From IMG/VR virus record IMGVR_UViG_3300008954_000001: DNA of 64,000 nucleotides, one strand, 5' to 3'. This document shows, piece by piece, positions 57,985 to 63,988 of the stretch (position 1 is the first letter of the stretch; each line of letters starts with the position of its first letter). The position numbers and the translations under genes were made by a program. The notes beneath the pieces were generated by a model, which was given only the letters and a program-made list of their open reading frames with translations, was not told the origin of the DNA and ran no database searches. The stretch is from a virus. Taxonomy: Duplodnaviria; Caudoviricetes.

Positions 57985-58020
57985 GAACGGCCCCCATAAG
58001 AAAGCAGTCCTGATTAAGAG

Positions 58021-58221
58021 TTATTCAGTTTCGGTTGGAGAGGGGCACCACAGTTCCAAAGCATCTTTCAAACGAATCTGACGATACTTTTTCTCCCCTT
58101 CTTCTGATCCGAAGCTCAGGTGCATGAACGATTGTACCCAATCATTGATGGCACGAAGCTCCCGAATGTTACCCGAAAACACAAGTTGGCCGTTTTTATT
58201 AGTTCCTCGAACAAGCGACAT
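58021..58221 (-). CDS. Small hypothetical protein
   Basis: AGGAGG RBS. Confidence 0.6.
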   Translation of the reverse strand: MSLVRGTNKNGQLVFSGNIRELRAINDWVQSFMHLSFGSEEGEKKYRQIRLKDALELWCPSPTETE

Positions 58222-58288
58222 CTTCTTTCCTCCTGTTGTTACAGCATATTACTGCCATTTCCATTAGAAGGGACATAGAAGATGCTGT

Positions 58289-58621
58289 CTAATTTTTAGA
58301 CTCGCTTTTTAGGATCTTACGAGCCTCACCCGCTTCTGGGAGGCGATCTTTGACGTAGGCTTCGAGATCGAAATCGGTAATCGAAGATTTGAACTCGTTG
58401 AAGGCCCTTTTCCAATCGGGGTCAAATTCAAGCTCAGTCTTACCTTCGTGTCCGTGAATGGCTCGAACTTCACCAATCGAATCATAGATCGTGGTTGAGG
58501 GATGTTCAGATAACCATGTGACAGCGACCTTGCCGTTATCAAACACGAAACCTTGAGCCACACGTCCCGTGCCGCTAACGCCGCTTTCGTCTTCTTTCCG
58601 TACTAAATAGAACATTCTCAC
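58289..58621 (-). CDS. Conserved phage hypothetical protein
   Basis: F.L.R.ED.SGVSGTG.VA.G..F..G.V...W...HGH.GKT pattern. Confidence 0.75.
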   Translation of the reverse strand: MRMFYLVRKEDESGVSGTGRVAQGFVFDNGKVAVTWLSEHPSTTIYDSIGEVRAIHGHEGKTELEFDPDWKRAFNEFKSSITDFDLEAYVKDRLPEAGEARKILKSESKN

Positions 58622-58720
58622 TGGTTCCCCCAGCCCGTTAGCCGCACCTACACAGCAACCGCTGGTTGTCTTGAGTTACAGTAGGCGTACTACCTTCACG
58701 ATAGATAAACAGGATATCGC

Positions 58721-59412
58721 TTACGTTGCAGGTTTGCACCCTACGACCACAGGTTCCCATGCTGGCTTTAGAGCAGTCCCCACACCACGATAAGGTAACG
58801 CTGTTTCACAAAGTTCCGTATCTTGCTCATCCGCTTCGATTTCTGAACTGAACATGCGGCCCTTCCGATAGTCTACTTGGCCCGTAGGGGCGTAAGATTC
58901 CCCCATACGAGCCATGCGAAGGTTCTTGGGGGCCGTACCCCCTGTCAACACCAGTGCGTTGATTGCACGGGCCACGTTGTGCGATTTTGGAAAGCCGCTT
59001 CCATAGAGCCACCCTTCAAGGCGGATATCCGTGAAGCCCGCTTCGGACATGGCGGCAGCCAGACGATGATACGTTCGAGTACCAGAGAACGCCTTGATGA
59101 TCCCAGATGGGCGTAGGACTCGGTAAGACTCCTGCAACCAAAGAAGGTGCCACTCTTGCTGTCGCTGAAGAACATCTTCGGACTTCCCGTAAGAAGCGGT
59201 GCCTCCGTATCGAACTTTAGATCGACCGTATGGGTTATCTATGTCGGAGAACTTTCCGTCCCCCGGTTGGTCAGGGACGCATTTGTCCCAATCTTTCCCC
59301 ATAAACTCCAAACCTAACCGTAGGGAGGATCACAAATGATGCTCCCTACGCTTCCCTCCTTCATTTCGGACATTCGAGCGATACAATCGCCGTGTAAAAG
59401 ACGAAGGATCAT
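58721..59412 (-). CDS. DNA MTase catalytic half C, interrupted after DPPYG (proposed +5 nt ribosomal hop)
   Basis: ATG 59412 overlaps the upstream TGA; 32 aa to DPPYG then TAG (59316-59314); LEFMGKDWD resumes in another frame at 59311; ends ALKPAWEP..GCK. Confidence 0.8.
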
Positions 59413-60266
59413 TTAACCCCTACACAAACTGGTTCCCAACTTGGCTTGAGGGCCGTACCCCACCCGTCCCATGTTTCGGACTCTGGTGTAGCGGGAGCAG
59501 TAACAGGGATTTCTGATGGTCCTTCAGAAGTGAAGGCCACCCCTGGAACGGCTTTGCGGTATCCGACGATCTCACGCTCGGCTTCAGCGAAGAACTCGTC
59601 CAACTCTCCATCCATTTCAGTTTCGCTCTCGCAACCCAACACCCGCTTCATGGTTTCCCACTTCTCAGGTGAGGGAAGGACGTTGAACCAAGGGTCGGGC
59701 TGCTTGCCGTCCTCTGGAACAGACAAGTAGTTGCAAGCCCGAAAGCCACACTCCTTATCGATCTGAGAGCGGGTCTTGCCCGAAGCGTCGAACAACTTAC
59801 GAAGTTCCTCTTTCAAAACCGTGACGGACGAATTCATACGACCGTGCTGCTTATCGATGGCCTTGCCAATGTTCATAGACTTTGGAAACCCAGAACCGTA
59901 AGTCCACGCCTCTACCCGAATGTCCTTCAAGCCAGCGTGTTCCATAGCCTCGGCCATTCGGTGAAACGTCCTTGTCCCTCCAAAGGCTTTGACGACTCCA
60001 CCGGGTTTGAGGACACGGAAAACCTGACCCCAAAACTCTTGGCTAAAGGCGATCCCAGTTCCGTCCCATTCTTTACCCATGAAGCCTTTGGATTTGCTTG
60101 GCCCACTCCGTCCATAGGGAGTTTCCAAGTCCCCCGGTTGAGGGCTTCCATTACGAGAGTTCCCAACAAGGTCGTAAGGAGGGTCACACACGAAGGCGGC
60201 GACCGAGTTGTCTTCCATTTCACTGAGGCGAATAATGCAATCGCCATGCTTCAAGTTTAAGTTCAT
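59409..60266 (-). CDS. DNA MTase catalytic half B (uninterrupted), with HTH-like insert
   Basis: True start ATG 60266 (ATGA overlap); HGDC, CDPPYD, RVLKPGG, YGSGFPKS, ALKPSWEP; no SAM-binding motif I. Confidence 0.85.
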   Translation of the reverse strand: MNLNLKHGDCIIRLSEMEDNSVAAFVCDPPYDLVGNSRNGSPQPGDLETPYGRSGPSKSKGFMGKEWDGTGIAFSQEFWGQVFRVLKPGGVVKAFGGTRTFHRMAEAMEHAGLKDIRVEAWTYGSGFPKSMNIGKAIDKQHGRMNSSVTVLKEELRKLFDASGKTRSQIDKECGFRACNYLSVPEDGKQPDPWFNVLPSPEKWETMKRVLGCESETEMDGELDEFFAEAEREIVGYRKAVPGVAFTSEGPSEIPVTAPATPESETWDGWGTALKPSWEPVCVGVK

Positions 60267-60867
60267 AGCTTTACTCCTACGATTATGGGTTCCCAAGCTG
60301 GCTTCAAGGCTGTCCCCCAACCTTCCCAAGGCTTCGCTTCGGTGGTTGTTACAGACCATTTTCCACCGGGCTTGTTTCGATATTGTCCCGCCTTCGTGCC
60401 TTGCCACTCTTCACGGTCGAACTCATGGCGGATCATTTCGGTAGTGGGATCTTCTTGGCCGCTCATGGCACGGGCATCGGCAATCTGTTTGGGGGACGAC
60501 CCTCCGAACAGGACCGTGGCTTCAATGTTCTTTCCAATGTTATAGGACTTTGGAAAGCCAGAACCGTACATCCATGCCTCTATGCGTATATGTGCATATC
60601 CAGCTTGCTCCATAGCGGCTGCGAGCCTGTGGTAAGTGCGAGTACCGCTAAAGGCTTTGATATTTCCGCCAGAACGAAGAACTCGGTGGGCCTCTTGTAG
60701 CCAGCGCACATGCCAAAGTTGTTGTGAATCTAACTTGTCCCAACCTTTACCCATAAATTCGAGGCCATTCAGCCGTAGGGAGGATCACAAATAATCCCCC
60801 CTACGCAGCCCTCCTTCATCTCGGACATGCGCTGTACGCAATCCCCAAGCCTAATGGTTAGATTCAT
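60263..60867 (-). CDS. DNA MTase catalytic half A, interrupted after DPPYG (proposed +8 nt ribosomal hop)
   Basis: ATG 60867 overlaps the upstream TGA; 32 aa to DPPYG then TGA (60771-60769); LEFMGKGWD resumes in another frame at 60763; ends ALKPAWEP..GVKL. Confidence 0.8.
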
Positions 60868-61073
60868 CCTGAATACCCGTCCTTGGCCCAACCGCCACCT
60901 TTCAATGAAAAGGAGGTCTTGGAAATGAGCTTCTTTAACTTGCCTTTGCCCTTGTCCTTCTTCTTACCTTTGCAAAGGTCTTTAGAACAGGTCTTCAAAG
61001 GGTCTTCAGACATACGCTGCATCACTTCAAAGCAATGCCCGCACCTTTCACACTCGTACTCATAGATCGCCAT
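60864..61073 (-). CDS. FmdB-family Zn-ribbon protein
   Basis: MAIYEYECERCGHCFEVMQRMSEDPLKTC...KLKKLIS...F.LKGGGW..DGY. Confidence 0.88.
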   Translation of the reverse strand: MAIYEYECERCGHCFEVMQRMSEDPLKTCSKDLCKGKKKDKGKGKLKKLISKTSFSLKGGGWAKDGYSG

Positions 61074-62230
61074 TAACTGCCCATACCGAACAGATCGGAC
61101 AATCCAACTGCTTCCTCTTCTTTGGTTTCCGTTGGGGCTTCCGAGTCAATCTTTGCCATACGGCCACGCCATTCAGAGGAATCCCAATACCGAACACGGG
61201 CATCGGCAATCCGAATGTAGTCTTCCTCTTTTTCGATGCCGATAAAGTCATGTCCTGTATGAAGGGCGGCGATCCCAGTTGACCCTGACCCCATAAAAGG
61301 ATCAACCACAGGGCCGTTGCCCTTAGGGACAGTGTTGAGTAGGGCTTCCATGATGGCGTAGGGCTTTACGGTCGGGTGGTCATTACCAAGCCGCTTTCCA
61401 TCCTTACGAAGTTTCGCACAACCCGCTTCTCGTTCCGAACGAGAAGCCTTGGGGACATACCAAAAGCCTTCGGCATCAGTAACGAACAAGATGCTGTCCC
61501 GAATCTCGAACCCACCATCCTCTAAACGGCAAGCACCAACATGACCTGTGGGCATATCGTCGGGAGCGACCAAGAGAATGTGTCCTCCCGGTTTGAGGAC
61601 TCGATCCATCTCTTTCGTTTGATCTTCGGTAGGTGTCCCTTCCGCAATCAAACCGTGAATGGATTGATCCTCCACCTCGGACAAGTCGTAAGCATTTACG
61701 TCCTTCATATAAAGGACACCCCCATCCCCCGTGATGTGGGACGGGTCAATCAAGTCCGTCAAATACGACAGCAATTCGCTTGGGATAGCGTCATTATTTT
61801 CCATGTTATCCACCTCTTTGAAATATCTTGATGCCCCACCAGTATCTTCATACCCTCGAACAGTCGTGTCCCTGACATCATTTGAGTTCCATTCCACCGA
61901 AGATCCTTCAGTAGAATAAATAGGTTCCCCGGTAGGTTGCCGTAAACCCGTCGATGAAATCCCACTTTGTTCGTCTAAGGCTCCCGAACTGGTTTCGGTA
62001 AGGACCACATTTGCGGGCCACCGTCCTTCAGGATGTTGGCCTTGGGCTTCAAGGTCGTCCTTCATTCCGAAGTTGATTGACGAAGCCTCTCGGTTGTTTG
62101 ACCCAATGGACAAGGTATCGGTTGTACCGATACGCACATTGTCGATGTTCAGCCCACCACACCCATGTTTCAAGGTGTTGGCGGCGACCGTCCCTATGAG
62201 GGGCTTTCTGGCTACTGTGATTCCTTTCAA
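61073..62230 (-). CDS. DNA MTase SAM-binding half with an inserted degenerate catalytic-like domain
   Basis: TTG 62230 with GGAGG RBS overlaps the MT-A70 stop; begins ITVARKPLIG; GRWPAN, GGASRYF, PKASRSERE, HPTVKP, motif I VVDPFMGSGSTG; no DPPY. Confidence 0.85.
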   Translation of the reverse strand: MKGITVARKPLIGTVAANTLKHGCGGLNIDNVRIGTTDTLSIGSNNREASSINFGMKDDLEAQGQHPEGRWPANVVLTETSSGALDEQSGISSTGLRQPTGEPIYSTEGSSVEWNSNDVRDTTVRGYEDTGGASRYFKEVDNMENNDAIPSELLSYLTDLIDPSHITGDGGVLYMKDVNAYDLSEVEDQSIHGLIAEGTPTEDQTKEMDRVLKPGGHILLVAPDDMPTGHVGACRLEDGGFEIRDSILFVTDAEGFWYVPKASRSEREAGCAKLRKDGKRLGNDHPTVKPYAIMEALLNTVPKGNGPVVDPFMGSGSTGIAALHTGHDFIGIEKEEDYIRIADARVRYWDSSEWRGRMAKIDSEAPTETKEEEAVGLSDLFGMGS

Positions 62231-62820
62231 GGAGACACCTCCGCAATTTGGTTGCCCCAAGAGTGCCAACCGGGGCGGTCTCTCCGTGCGAACACTTCTA
62301 AGTAAGGGCCATCTGAAACCGTCTCCACCAATTCATAGAACGCATCGGGTTTCCGTGAATGGGCGGTTCGGTCAGCATGGACCACAGTCGGGGGCCTTCT
62401 ATCTGTGGAAGGGACCATTGCTTTCCCTTTGACCCCAAACAAAAGAAGTTCATGCTGACCCCGCATATATTGGCCTAAACCTTTTCGTTGTTTGACCCAC
62501 ACGGCGTTGGTTACATAACGGAACCCAAGTTCTTCCATGAGCCACAAGCCGTCCGTTAGGTAGTTGTTTGTTGCCCATAACCACAGGTGGCAATCGTCGG
62601 CGGGTCGCCAAAGATCCCCTGATTGGATTACCGCTGGCATGTCCTTGGTCTTTACCAAGGGATAGTGTCGATCCGCACCTCGCTTAATGGTTCCCCCTCC
62701 CACTTCGGTCCATGGAGGGTCCATCATAATTGCTCGGTATCCCGCTTGAGGTACTTCCCCAAGCGACATGATGTGCGGGGGCTTTTGAACCCCCATGGCG
62801 AACAGATCAGACAGTTCCAT
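62227..62820 (-). CDS. MT-A70-family adenine methyltransferase
   Basis: MDPPW, HLWLWATN, GLGQYMRGQHELLLFG, HSRKP, YLEVFAR, GW.SWGNQ. Confidence 0.92.
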   Translation of the reverse strand: MELSDLFAMGVQKPPHIMSLGEVPQAGYRAIMMDPPWTEVGGGTIKRGADRHYPLVKTKDMPAVIQSGDLWRPADDCHLWLWATNNYLTDGLWLMEELGFRYVTNAVWVKQRKGLGQYMRGQHELLLFGVKGKAMVPSTDRRPPTVVHADRTAHSRKPDAFYELVETVSDGPYLEVFARRDRPGWHSWGNQIAEVSP

Positions 62821-63988
62821 CGCTGTTTCTCCGCACGATTTCTTTAGCCCTCTCAGCCATTTCAGGCATGTTCAGGCAAGGGTGGGCGCAATCAATCTTT
62901 CGTTTCGTAAGGTTGTAGTGGTTGATGAAGCCGTTGAACACCGCAGCAACACTTTCACCGTGAAGCCCTGTTTCAGGGGTGCCATCATCTTTGGTCGGGA
63001 CATCAAGAGGAATCCCCAAACCTTGATGGATAGCTGCCCACAGTGCAGCAAGAGCTTCCAACTGTACGGGATAGAAGCCCATGAAAGGCTTCATTGAACG
63101 ACCATGGCAAGTACCATCCGTAATAATAGGTCGAGGGTCTAACCCCTTGTCCGTGTAGAACTTCTGATACTTTTCGTAATAGGGATTGCAGATTTCGACA
63201 CCAATCCCCGTGTGGTTCCACAATCGACCCCCGGCTTGCCATGCGGCATGTTGAGTGTCGAGAAGTTGGTAAATAGTCCCATCGTAGTCGATGCCAAAAT
63301 GGATGCTGATCCCACGCTTGGCAATCACAGCCGCCATAGACTTAGTGGTTTTACAGACATCCCAGTGGTTCACGAAATGATTGGGCGCACGGTCTGGCTT
63401 CCCCGCATACGAGGAATAGGTTCCCGACTCACACTTCAAGCCCCCAACATCTGACCAGAGAACCACACGGTCCCAGTCAATCTCAATGAAGTTGCCGTTG
63501 TGTACGATGTGCTGCTGTCGTTTGATAATGACAGGCTCGTGGGCATCAATATCCTCTTCTCGCTCCGTCCAAATGCGACGGAAAGTTGAAGGGCCACACA
63601 AGCCGTCTGCGGTCAAATCTCGATCCGTCTGCCACTTCGCAATCGCTTCAGTGAGATCGGTATCAAAAGCCGCAAGGCCCTCCCCAAACCAATCGGGGGT
63701 CCAGCCGAGCTTTTCAGCCGAGCTTTCGTTGTAGAACTCTTTGCCTGAAGTGCCGTTGCTTTCTTGTTCTTCGGCTTCCTTTTCAGTAGCGATTTTACGC
63801 TCTTGAATAAGAACCTTAAAGGTTCCAGGGCCGCACAGCCCATCTGCGGTGAGGTTGTGGGAGGATTGCCAAGCCGTAATCGCTTCGGTCAGATGTTCAT
63901 CGAACTCTTCAAACTTTCCAAACCATTCAGGTTTCCAACCTAATTTTTGGGCCGAGTTCTCGTTGTAGAATTCTTTATCGATTGCCAT
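62807..63988 (-). CDS. Endolysin: two peptidoglycan-binding repeats plus N-acetylmuramoyl-L-alanine amidase
   Basis: Duplicated KEFYNE.SA.KLGW.P.WFG...AI..WQ....LTADGLCGP.TF; amidase HFVNHWD, SIHFGID.DG.IYQ, GIGVEI. Confidence 0.88.
   Translation of the reverse strand: MAIDKEFYNENSAQKLGWKPEWFGKFEEFDEHLTEAITAWQSSHNLTADGLCGPGTFKVLIQERKIATEKEAEEQESNGTSGKEFYNESSAEKLGWTPDWFGEGLAAFDTDLTEAIAKWQTDRDLTADGLCGPSTFRRIWTEREEDIDAHEPVIIKRQQHIVHNGNFIEIDWDRVVLWSDVGGLKCESGTYSSYAGKPDRAPNHFVNHWDVCKTTKSMAAVIAKRGISIHFGIDYDGTIYQLLDTQHAAWQAGGRLWNHTGIGVEICNPYYEKYQKFYTDKGLDPRPIITDGTCHGRSMKPFMGFYPVQLEALAALWAAIHQGLGIPLDVPTKDDGTPETGLHGESVAAVFNGFINHYNLTKRKIDCAHPCLNMPEMAERAKEIVRRNSDGTV

What the first reader, a model, noticed from the sequence alone, without database searches (positions are those of the whole stretch)
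59319..60805. A hairpin ending on the take-off codon is present only in the two interrupted paralogs
Paralog A: CGTAGGGGGGAT (60805-60794) pairs with ATCCTCCCTACG (60785-60774), 12 bp with one G:U and an 8-nt loop. Paralog C: CGTAGGGAG (59350-59342) pairs with CTCCCTACG (59327-59319), 9 bp perfect plus 2 bp after a C-C mismatch. Both stems end on the first G of the take-off codon and are preceded by ATGAAGGAGGG (SD-like) and a shared nascent peptide RMSEMKEG.VG.IICDPPYG. The uninterrupted paralog B (TCG GTC GCC GCC TTC GTG TGT GAC CCT CCT TAC GAC) has neither hairpin nor SD-like run. Inference: a cis stimulator like the 5' stem-loop of T4 gene 60. Alternatively, the hairpin could be a mutational hotspot that produced the micro-duplications.
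Basis: partly seen in the sequence, partly recalled or inferred. Interest (0 to 1): 0.75.

Follow-up and report, generated by a model that had tools for sequence, protein, structure and literature searches.

The report
RNA hairpin that launches a ribosome hop
Two of three tandem DNA-methylase half-genes of an uncultured marine phage are cut by a 5- or 8-base gap that starts with a stop codon, and just upstream each has a ribosome-binding-like motif and a strong RNA hairpin that their uncut relatives lack, most likely a device that pushes ribosomes across the gap.

Summary
Both hairpins lie at the stated coordinates (A: 13-14 bp, -21.8 kcal/mol; C: 9+4 bp, -18.0). Each ends on the first G of the Gly codon before the stop. 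Paralog B has none.

Across 207 distinct homologous DPPY junctions, a stem of 9 bp or more ending at this codon occurs in 21 of 27 interrupted genes and 3 of 180 uninterrupted ones. Uninterrupted close kin with the same peptide keep the 5' arm, but their Pro-Pro-Tyr codons have drifted synonymously and the hairpin is lost. Within the window's clade three base pairs co-vary. A second clade built a different hairpin at the same place. Both designs have AGGAG 4-6 nt before the stem.

The gaps are 5-15 nt, fall in all three frames, always start with a stop, and are followed by in-frame Gly-Leu-Glu-Phe codons that vary synonymously. This fits a short translational hop, not a frameshift, a pseudogene or a split gene.

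The hairpin is not universal: 6 of 27 interrupted genes lack it. This scan noted the same device earlier on other DNA (e1-5401259). I found no published description.

The parts
60810..60816 (-). Paralog A: SD-like AAGGAGG, 4 nt 5' of the stem
   Evidence: Sequence. AGGAG lies in this position in 17/24 interrupted versus 9/180 uninterrupted homologs.
60794..60805 (-). Paralog A: 5' arm of the hairpin (codons Cys-Val-Gly-Gly-Ile)
60774..60785 (-). Paralog A: 3' arm (Asp-Pro-Pro-Tyr codons plus G1 of the take-off codon)
   Evidence: CCT CCC TAC is fixed in hairpin-bearing kin and drifts in uninterrupted kin.
60764..60774 (-). Paralog A: take-off GGC (60774-60772), stop TGA (60771-60769), 8-nt gap (60771-60764) ending in landing GGC (60766-60764)
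60772..60867 (-). Paralog A ORF1, 32 codons from Met to the DPPYG Gly; its ATG overlaps the stop of the Zn-ribbon gene
60263..60763 (-). Paralog A ORF2 as resumed after landing: Leu-Glu-Phe, then MGKGWDK (ATG 60754-60752), to the stop
59355..59361 (-). Paralog C: SD-like AAGGAGG, 4 nt 5' of the stem
59342..59350 (-). Paralog C: 5' arm (outer 9 bp); the inner 4 bp are 59340-59337 with 59332-59329
59319..59327 (-). Paralog C: 3' arm, ending on G1 of the take-off codon
59312..59319 (-). Paralog C: take-off GGT (59319-59317), stop TAG (59316-59314), 5-nt gap (59316-59312) ending in landing GGT (59314-59312)
   Evidence: The same 5-nt design occurs in L395.
59317..59412 (-). Paralog C ORF1, 32 codons; its ATG overlaps the stop of paralog B
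58721..59311 (-). Paralog C ORF2 as resumed after landing: Leu-Glu-Phe, then MGKDWDK (ATG 59302-59300), to the stop
59409..60266 (-). Paralog B, the uninterrupted within-genome control (DPPYD plus a 25-aa insert plus MGKEWDG); no hairpin, no SD-like run

Best explanation
The hairpin is one part of a conserved three-part recoding module: AGGAG(G), then 4-6 nt, then a 9-16 bp stem-loop whose 3' arm is the Pro-Pro-Tyr-G(ly) codons, then a Gly codon followed by a stop. The module promotes a short programmed translational bypass.

Proposed sequence of events. The ribosome translates the 32-codon ORF1 and pauses with peptidyl-tRNA-Gly on GGN in the P site and a stop in the A site. At that moment the 5' arm and loop have left the ribosome, while the 3' arm still fills the E site and the exit channel. 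Zipping up of the stem pulls the 3' arm out. This slides the mRNA 5'-ward, so the ribosome moves 3'-ward, by 5-13 nt until the tRNA-Gly re-pairs with the next GGN. Decoding then resumes at Leu-Glu-Phe-Met-Gly-Lys and yields one continuous N-half methyltransferase with an intact DPPYG-LEFMGK catalytic loop. The SD-like motif at the foot of the stem probably pairs with the 16S anti-SD. It would either anchor the refolding helix at the exit or, once the stem has collapsed the 32-38 nt between them, fix the landing register.

Shown: the structure; its restriction to interrupted genes; co-variation; the hop-like anatomy of the gaps. Inferred: that hopping occurs at all, that refolding drives it, and what the SD does.
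For: Both hairpins are present and stable.

Association. A stem of 9 bp or more ending within -4..+3 of take-off G1 occurs in 21/27 interrupted versus 3/180 uninterrupted junctions (Fisher 2e-20). With peptide context matched it is 14/18 versus 1/17 (p = 2e-5).

Closest controls. L386_8081 and L384_8081 encode the same AMKEESVGSVICDPPYG and the same 5' arm, but use CCG CCT TAT or CCA CCA TAC and have no hairpin. The ORF2 sister genes of WIN_A and WIN_C are uninterrupted and lack the hairpin (98* and 99*).

Co-variation. In the 14-sequence clade alignment 98.4% of cells pair, versus 36-53% when the partner is slid. Three pairs change on both sides: AU/CG/GC/GU; GC x8 / AU x4; AU x9 / GC x2. Further compensations appear in L396 (CGG with CCG) and L097 (CAG with CCG), each at the cost of an amino-acid change.

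Independent design. L178 and L186/L164/L218 use a different register and different arms, include the whole take-off codon, and also have AAGGAG 4-6 nt upstream. Their uninterrupted sisters L210 and L211 have 5-bp stems.

Prospective test. Three newly fetched interrupted genes (L395, L396, L397) all had the stem.

Hop anatomy. Gaps of 5, 7, 8, 10, 12, 13, 14 and 15 nt fall in all three frames, including in-frame gaps with one or two stops. A stop always follows the Gly codon. GGN occupies the landing position in 23/27. Six Leu codons and two Glu codons are used between landing and ATG.

In every hairpin-bearing gene the stem is at least as long as the gap.

Literature. The gene 60 5' SL forms after leaving the ribosome and is proposed to propel the first pseudo-translocation steps (bioRxiv 10.1101/2022.08.31.505936). 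A 5' stem-loop with a flanking SD is proposed for the 10-nt bypass in phage Hau3 terminase (PMC10732093).
Against: There are no protein, RNA or ribosome data for any member.

Six of 27 interrupted genes (L006, L182, L202, L203, L235 and one more with a stem of only 8 bp) lack a 9-bp stem. Five of them also lack the SD, so hopping, if real, does not strictly need the module.

Take-off and landing codons are often non-identical Gly codons (GGT to GGA, GGA to GGC). In L186-type genes and L396 the landing position holds AGC.

The Val-Gly-Ser/Gly peptide is itself antisense-like to Pro-Pro-Tyr, so 5-12% of random synonymous versions already fold.

The phylogenetically independent-pairs test has only 5 well-supported pairs: about 4 go the same way and 0 the opposite way, p = 0.125, which is underpowered.

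ORF1 appears to be a cassette with its own history, so many hairpin-bearing genes may share one origin of the module.
Confidence: 0.62

Rival explanations
1. The gene is truly split into two polypeptides: a 32-aa DPPYG peptide, and ORF2 started at its own ATG. The SD plus hairpin would act as a discontinuous ribosome-binding site or coupling element for re-initiation, as in T4 genes 25 and 38, where a hairpin brings a distant SD close to the AUG.
For: Every ORF2 has an ATG 9 nt after the landing codon. Gene callers predict ORF2 as a protein in many metagenomes. The stop-to-ATG distance is short. In C, GGAG lies 4 nt before the ATG. The T4 gene 25/38 analogy rests on my own knowledge.
Against: The Met is conserved in uninterrupted genes too (FMGK), so it is not a dedicated start. 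The 9-12 nt before the ATG keep Gly-Leu-Glu/Ser/Ala-Phe in the ORF2 frame with synonymous turnover (six Leu codons, GAG/GAA), which implies that they are translated. After the stem, 17-20 nt remain before the ATG, too far for the upstream SD. Many members have no SD near the ATG.
Confidence: 0.12
2. The hairpin has no function of its own. It hitch-hikes on a 5' cassette (ORF1 plus gap) that spreads among paralogs by gene conversion or transfer, so its link with the interruption is shared ancestry.
For: ORF1 of A and C are 72% identical while their ORF2s are 41% identical. ORF2 of A is 79% identical to the uninterrupted L385, whose ORF1-equivalent is only 50% identical. The independent-pairs test is underpowered.
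Against: Within the cassette, loop codons and flanks vary at synonymous sites while arm positions are invariant or change in a compensatory way. A and C differ at 5 synonymous sites outside the arms and at none inside them. A second clade has a non-homologous stem at the same place. Uninterrupted kin that retain the 5' arm have let the 3' arm decay.
Confidence: 0.1
3. The element acts at the DNA level. The inverted repeat would be a mutational hotspot that created the micro-insertions, or a protein or nuclease recognition site, for example for a homing endonuclease as with mobA and gene 60.
For: Some gaps look like short duplications: GGTTA-GGTT in C, ATGGT...ATGGT in L006, TATGG...TATGG in L186. 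GIY-YIG genes occur in related contigs.
Against: A hotspot would be at least as frequent in the still-uninterrupted state, but it is rare there (3/180). It gives no reason to preserve pairing after the event through compensatory changes, nor for the uniform design of stop first and GGN last. The arms differ in sequence between clades, which argues against a sequence-specific protein site.
Confidence: 0.08
4. The stem stimulates a conventional -1 or +1 programmed frameshift rather than a hop.
For: In A and C, ORF2 is in the -1 frame relative to ORF1. Upstream SD-like elements are known frameshift stimulators (dnaX, prfB; my own knowledge).
Against: There is no slippery heptamer. In A the -1 frame has a TGA five codons before the ORF1 stop, leaving only non-slippery sequence. 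Homologs need +1 (L006, L097, L178) or no shift at all (L202 with two in-frame stops, L235). Known frameshift stimulatory structures lie 3' of the shift site, not 5'.
Confidence: 0.04

Closest known systems
Phage T4 gene 60 translational bypass and its homologs; specifically its 5' stem-loop
   Same: Gly take-off codon followed at once by a stop. Gly landing codon. Take-off early in the gene (codon 32 here, 46 in gene 60). A stem-loop made of coding sequence 5' of the take-off codon that can form only after it leaves the ribosome. The element may be cassette-like.
   Different: The gap is 5-15 nt rather than 50. There is no take-off stem-loop in the gap and no forward-slippage barrier. The SD-like motif lies 5' of the 5' stem, not 6 nt before the landing site. 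Take-off and landing codons are often different GGN codons. The host gene is a DNA methyltransferase half, unrelated to topoisomerase. No nascent-peptide signal has been shown.
[quoted passage not shown]
   Same: A short gap of about 10 nt in a phage gene. Take-off on Gly (KGWG). The proposed 5' stimulators are a stem-loop with a flanking Shine-Dalgarno sequence, the same architecture as found here.
   Different: In Hau3 the slow A-site codon is the rare UUA and not a stop, and the proposed role is sensing of the host's bldA tRNA. Only a few sequences are known, so there is no comparative co-variation. The gene family and host group differ.
'Stop-hops' and hungry-codon hops in E. coli (Weiss et al. 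1987; Gallant and Lindsley), reviewed in PMC5009743
   Same: Peptidyl-tRNA re-pairs at a nearby matching codon across a stop or slow codon. The event is independent of frame. In-frame versions are possible.
   Different: Those hops are unprogrammed, inefficient and seen in synthetic or stress contexts. They have no conserved stimulatory RNA module and no natural gene family that depends on them.
Byp elements of Magnusiomyces capitatus mitochondria
   Same: Many natural stop- or unassigned-codon-initiated gaps are bypassed to give functional proteins. The inserts appear mobile.
   Different: The inserts are 27-55 nt GC-cluster-like elements in mitochondria, the stimulatory structure lies within the insert, and the translation system is different.

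Membership tests
T4 gene 60-type programmed bypass | Matched Gly take-off and landing codons | tested here: met
   A: GGC and GGC. C: GGT and GGT. Across homologs both are GGN in 23/27 but are identical in only about a third.
T4 gene 60-type programmed bypass | [quoted passage not shown] | tested here: met
   TGA in A and TAG in C. 27/27 interrupted homologs have a stop there.
T4 gene 60-type programmed bypass | Take-off stem-loop with the take-off codon in its 5' side (A-site SL) | tested here: not met
   The gaps are 5-8 nt. Folding shows the take-off codon at the 3' end of the upstream stem, not at the start of a downstream one.
T4 gene 60-type programmed bypass | 5' stem-loop that refolds behind the ribosome | tested here: met
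   A stem of 9-16 bp ends on the take-off codon, co-varies and is specific to interrupted genes. Its action by refolding is inferred.
T4 gene 60-type programmed bypass | SD-like GAG 5-7 nt 5' of the landing codon | tested here: not met
   There is no room in a 5-8 nt gap. The SD-like AAGGAGG lies 4-6 nt 5' of the stem.
T4 gene 60-type programmed bypass | Nascent-peptide signal acting in the exit tunnel | not testable with these tools
   ORF1 is 32 codons and conserved between A and C, but that conservation is confounded with the SD and the arm codons.
T4 gene 60-type programmed bypass | Homology to the gene 60 / topoisomerase cassette | tested here: not met
   The host gene is a PF01555 methyltransferase half.
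Hau3-type short bypass with 5' stem-loop and flanking SD | About 10-nt gap, 5' stem-loop, adjacent SD | tested here: met
   Gaps of 5-13 nt in the hairpin class, with AGGAG 4-6 nt 5' of the stem. The features of the family are taken from PMC10732093.
Hau3-type short bypass with 5' stem-loop and flanking SD | Rare UUA codon in the A site as trigger | tested here: not met
   The A-site codon is always a stop.
Programmed -1/+1 ribosomal frameshift | Slippery site and a constant frame change across homologs | tested here: not met
   There is no heptamer, and the homologs need -1, +1 or 0.
Beta-class N6/N4 DNA methyltransferase (PF01555), split form | Motif IV DPPY in the N-half; HPTxKP and motif I FxGxG in a separate C-half | tested here: met
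   A, B and C match the N-terminal part of PF01555 below its cut-off (19-20 bits). ORF 62269-61073 matches the C-terminal part at 78 bits. The fused homolog L001 shows that the halves are colinear.
Rfam RNA families | Match to any curated covariance model | tested here: not met
   No match at E <= 1 in 58000-63000.

The most novel reading that the evidence does not exclude
Marine and other phages carry a large natural family of programmed short-range translational bypass sites in methyltransferase genes. A portable 5' module (SD, then a refolding stem-loop, then Gly plus stop) acts as a molecular zipper that drags the mRNA through a paused ribosome by about the length of the stem. Stem length and SD position set the hop distance, and the module moves between paralogs as a cassette to tune which catalytic halves of a combinatorial split methylase are made.
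Probability: 0.3. Interest if true: 0.9.

Novelty: new variant of a known kind. Interest (0 to 1): 0.78.

Why it matters
Natural programmed bypassing is known from very few systems: T4 gene 60 and its homologs, yeast mitochondrial byps, and one candidate in phage Hau3. The role of the 5' stem-loop rests on one sequence family. Here dozens of diverged natural variants carry a short gap with a 5' SD-plus-hairpin module, with compensatory changes, two independent designs, and matched uninterrupted controls in the same genomes. That provides an evolutionary experiment on what a 5' refolding helix contributes to ribosome sliding, and a compact cassette of about 70 nt that can be tested directly in reporters. 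For annotation, these methyltransferase halves are not pseudogenes and should be joined. For phage biology, hop efficiency may set the ratio of alternative catalytic halves that compete for one SAM-binding half.

Tried and rejected
A DNA search of the isolate-phage collection found no match, and protein searches found only distant relatives at 33-41% identity. There is therefore no cultured relative and no named host.

The second viral pattern scan added no new interrupted methylases.

No RNA holder is listed among public runs, so nothing can be said about expression or about removal of the gap at the RNA level. Only DNA contigs could be laid.

No whole genome is held for this window, and the window has no tRNA gene. 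The decoding tRNA-Gly set is therefore unknown.

The independent-pairs sign test has too few well-supported pairs to reach significance.

The hairpins are not terminator-like and match no Rfam family.

My first two junction detectors were too strict and were replaced by an HMM-anchored one. The 'extra' column is one too small.

A -1 frameshift was considered first, because A and C share the -1 frame, and was rejected once homologs with +1 and in-frame gaps were seen.

No structure or complex prediction was run, because it would not bear on the RNA element.
Full report
**Observation.** On the - strand the window carries a tightly coupled operon, with ATGA or TAATG overlaps throughout. In order it holds an MT-A70 methylase (62820-62227), the C-terminal SAM-binding half of a beta-class N6/N4 DNA methyltransferase (62269-61073), a 69-aa zinc ribbon, and three paralogous N-terminal catalytic halves A, B and C. 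A and C stop right after the catalytic DPPYG. In A the sequence reads GGC, TGA, AT, GGC, CTC GAA TTT ATG. In C it reads GGT, TA, GGT, TTG GAG TTT ATG. Removing 8 nt from A or 5 nt from C restores the family sequence DPPYG-LEFMGK, which the fused homolog L001 shows uninterrupted.

The arms of A are 60805-60794 and 60785-60774. The arms of C are 59350-59342 and 59327-59319. Each 3' arm ends on the first G of the Gly codon that precedes the stop. RNAfold gives 13-14 bp and -21.8 kcal/mol for A, and 9+4 bp and -18.0 kcal/mol for C. The 71-nt context scores z = -4.3 for A and -2.3 for C, against -0.6 for B. ATGAAGGAGGG precedes both stems and is absent from B. Contigs assembled from three other samples of the same study cover both gaps without any indel. 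Their four strain differences near C keep the stem intact, one C:G pair becoming U:G.

**Is it more than chance?** The peptide Val-Gly-Gly/Ser is roughly the antisense of Pro-Pro-Tyr. Random synonymous recoding of the same peptide therefore gives a stem at least as long as observed in 1.1% of draws for A and 5.3% for C. One gene alone is only suggestive, so the case rests on homologs.

**The interruption is widespread and looks like a hop.** Of the 120 best database relatives of A-ORF2, about 25 begin at MGKxWD with no DPPY. Four carry the read-through prefix LRLNGLEF, which is the -1-frame translation of an A-type gap. I collected DNA in several ways: by similarity from IMG/VR and JGI metagenomes, by a pattern for Pro-Pro-Tyr-Gly-stop...Phe-Met-Gly, and by exact look-up of database proteins. 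An HMM-anchored script then found 207 distinct DPPY junctions, 27 interrupted and 180 not.

The gaps are 5, 7, 8, 10, 12, 13, 14 or 15 nt long and so fall in all three frames. L202 has a 15-nt in-frame gap with two stops, and L235 a 12-nt in-frame gap with one stop. In all 27 a stop follows the Gly codon directly (17 TGA, 5 TAG and 2 TAA among the first 24). In 23 of 27 a GGN codon sits exactly three codons before the conserved Met. Those three codons read Leu/Ile-Glu/Ser/Ala-Phe, using six different Leu codons and both Glu codons. Synonymous turnover under amino-acid conservation means that this stretch is translated in the ORF2 frame upstream of the ATG. No frameshift of constant sign can produce that, and neither can independent initiation at the ATG or decay into a pseudogene. 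A peptidyl-tRNA-Gly hop from GGN across a stop to the next GGN explains every case.

**The hairpin goes with the interruption.** I measured the longest ungapped helix, G:U allowed, whose 3' end lies within -4 to +3 of the first G of the Gly codon.
- A helix of 9 bp or more occurs in 21 of 27 interrupted and 3 of 180 uninterrupted junctions (Fisher 2e-20).
- Restricted to genes with the same [VI]-G-x peptide context, it occurs in 14 of 18 versus 1 of 17 (p = 2e-5).
- The sharpest controls are L386_8081 and L384_8081. They encode the same AMKEESVGSVICDPPYG and even keep the 5'-arm nucleotides, but their Pro-Pro-Tyr codons are CCG CCT TAT and CCA CCA TAC, so no stem forms.
- L384 has five N-half paralogs. 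Only the interrupted one has the stem. This repeats the A/C-versus-B contrast of the window.
- On an ORF2 tree, WIN_A groups (98*) with uninterrupted L385, L384_8081 and L378_8662. WIN_C groups (99*) with uninterrupted L240_6081 and L384_8683.
- Three interrupted genes fetched afterwards as a prediction test (L395, L396, L397) all carried the stem.

The formal independent-pairs test has only five well-supported pairs. About four go the expected way and none the opposite way (p = 0.125), so it is underpowered.

**Co-variation.** In a 14-sequence alignment of the window's clade, the proposed 13-pair helix is paired in 98.4% of cells, against 36-53% when the partner column is slid by 1-3. Eight pairs never vary, although they include four third-codon positions. 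Three pairs change on both sides:
- Pair 25-42 shows A:U x11, C:G, G:C and G:U.
- Pair 28-39 shows G:C x8 and A:U x4. An Ile/Val change tracks a synonymous GAT/GAC.
- Pair 31-36 shows A:U x9 and G:C x2. An Ile/Val change tracks a synonymous TGT/TGC.

Loop and flanking synonymous sites vary freely. In L097 and L396, Pro CCG is matched by CAG (Gln) and CGG (Arg) in place of Ser, so the protein sequence yields to keep the pairing.

**A second, independent design.** L178 and the L186/L164/L218 group belong to a distant part of the tree. Their uninterrupted sisters L210 and L211 have 5-bp stems. These genes pair the Cys/His-Thr-Val codons with Pro-Pro-Tyr-Gly in a register shifted by 4 nt. The stems are 11-13 bp and include the whole take-off codon. 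A G:C to A:U compensation follows the TAC/TAT difference between the two.

Both designs have AAGGAG(G) 4-6 nt before the foot of the stem. AGGAG at that position is found in 17 of 24 interrupted versus 9 of 180 uninterrupted genes. The unit under selection is therefore SD-like motif, short spacer, stem-loop, then Gly plus stop.

**Exceptions.** L006, L182, L202, L203 and L235, with gaps of 10-15 nt, have only 5-7 bp stems and no SD-like motif. Two of them have a weaker GC-rich 5-6 bp helix that ends a few nucleotides earlier. The module is thus characteristic of one class of sites and is not a universal requirement. In every hairpin-bearing gene the stem is at least as long as the gap (9 for 5; 8 for 7; 9-16 for 8; 11 for 10; 13 for 13).

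**Mechanism (inferred).** When the Gly codon is in the P site, a ribosome covers about 12-15 nt upstream; this figure is established knowledge. The 3' arm is then inside the ribosome while the loop and the 5' arm are already outside. The helix therefore cannot pre-exist at take-off and can act only by refolding. Each pair that forms from the loop end outward extracts one nucleotide of the 3' arm and moves the mRNA 5'-ward through the paused ribosome. The A-site stop gives the time, and the zipper supplies direction and distance. The next GGN lets the tRNA-Gly re-pair. [quoted passage not shown] The SD-like motif at the foot of the stem could hold the refolding helix at the platform through the anti-SD. 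Once the stem has removed 32-38 nt of contour length, it could also place the P site at a fixed distance, as hairpin-bridged SD elements do at some T4 initiation sites (my own knowledge). [quoted passage not shown] I put about 0.8 on the stem being a selected cis element tied to the interruption, and about 0.6 on the full bypass-by-refolding model.

**Rivals.** Four alternatives were weighed.
- A true split gene with re-initiation is contradicted by the translated Gly-Leu-Glu-Phe codons and by the 17-20 nt between stem and ATG.
- Pure hitch-hiking on a mobile 5' cassette has some basis. ORF1 of A and C are 72% identical while their ORF2s are 41% identical, and ORF2 of A is 79% identical to an uninterrupted gene with a 50%-identical N-terminus. 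It does not explain the compensatory changes, the decay of the 3' arm in uninterrupted kin, or the second design.
- A DNA-level hotspot or protein site predicts the repeat in uninterrupted alleles and no maintenance of pairing afterwards. Both predictions fail.
- Conventional frameshifting fails on the frames required.

**Comparison with known systems, and novelty.** The device works like gene 60 in several respects: Gly take-off, an adjacent stop, Gly landing, early position in the gene, and a 5' stem-loop. It fails several defining features of that family: there is no take-off stem-loop, no SD in the gap, no 50-nt gap and no homology. It resembles the Hau3 proposal most closely in architecture but uses a stop instead of a rare UUA. 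It matches no Rfam family, and full-text searches found no paper linking bypassing with phage methyltransferases. Within this scan, an earlier follow-up on another genome (e1-5401259) reported the same kind of gap after DPPYG in about 90 phage genes, with a co-evolving upstream helix. My results were obtained independently and agree with it. I class the finding as a new variant of a known kind. The main caveat is that every functional statement is comparative inference.

Noticed in passing
window 58721-62820 (- strand); L240, L377, L378, L380, L384, L386: The methylase is split. One SAM-binding C-half sits upstream of a zinc ribbon and an array of 1-5 catalytic N-halves that differ in their variable regions. 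The syntenic block (amidase, MT-A70, C-half, Zn ribbon, N-halves, Acb5-like gene ... Cpn60) recurs in many marine contigs. This suggests a combinatorial multi-specificity enzyme.
   Followed up: partly
window 60867-60772 versus 59412-59317; L385, L384:8001-8606: The genes are mosaic. ORF1 of A and C are 72% identical while their ORF2s are 41% identical. ORF2 of A is 79% identical to an uninterrupted gene whose N-terminus is only 50% identical. The 5' module (SD, stem, gap) seems to move or be homogenised as a cassette.
   Followed up: partly
L186/L164/L218 (about 10-nt gap) and L396:271-330: At the canonical landing position these genes have AGC instead of GGN. The L186 group also has a GGA six nt further on, preceded by a copy of TAT. 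Either two-of-three re-pairing suffices, or the product is two residues shorter.
   Followed up: no
L202:7111-7160 and L235:2994-3036: These gaps are in frame (15 nt with TAG and TAA; 12 nt with TAG). They would be natural 'in-frame stop-hops', a category that the 2016 review (PMC5009743) says has no known natural case.
   Followed up: no
window 59341, 59350, 59353, 59354: Strain variants in contigs of three other samples change Gly to Ala just after the SD and make two synonymous Ser changes. The one that touches the stem turns C:G into U:G, so pairing is kept.
   Followed up: yes
window 58289-58621 (- strand): This 110-aa ORF sits where relatives carry a gene with a precomputed Acb5 (PF26761) hit. 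My Pfam scan of the window's copy found nothing at E <= 0.01.
   Followed up: no
window 60171-60266 (paralog B) and P0005-P0008, P0091, P0096, P0112: A sub-family has DPPYD followed by a 20-35-aa insert (LVGNSRNGSPQPGD...) at the same spot where other genes carry the gap. The loop after DPPY therefore tolerates, or attracts, insertions at both protein and RNA level.
   Followed up: no
P0041, P0046, P0113 (database proteins): Some relatives start MKKKWD instead of MGKKWD. This may mark another kind of junction, or an A-run, at the same site. Their DNA was not fetched.
   Followed up: no
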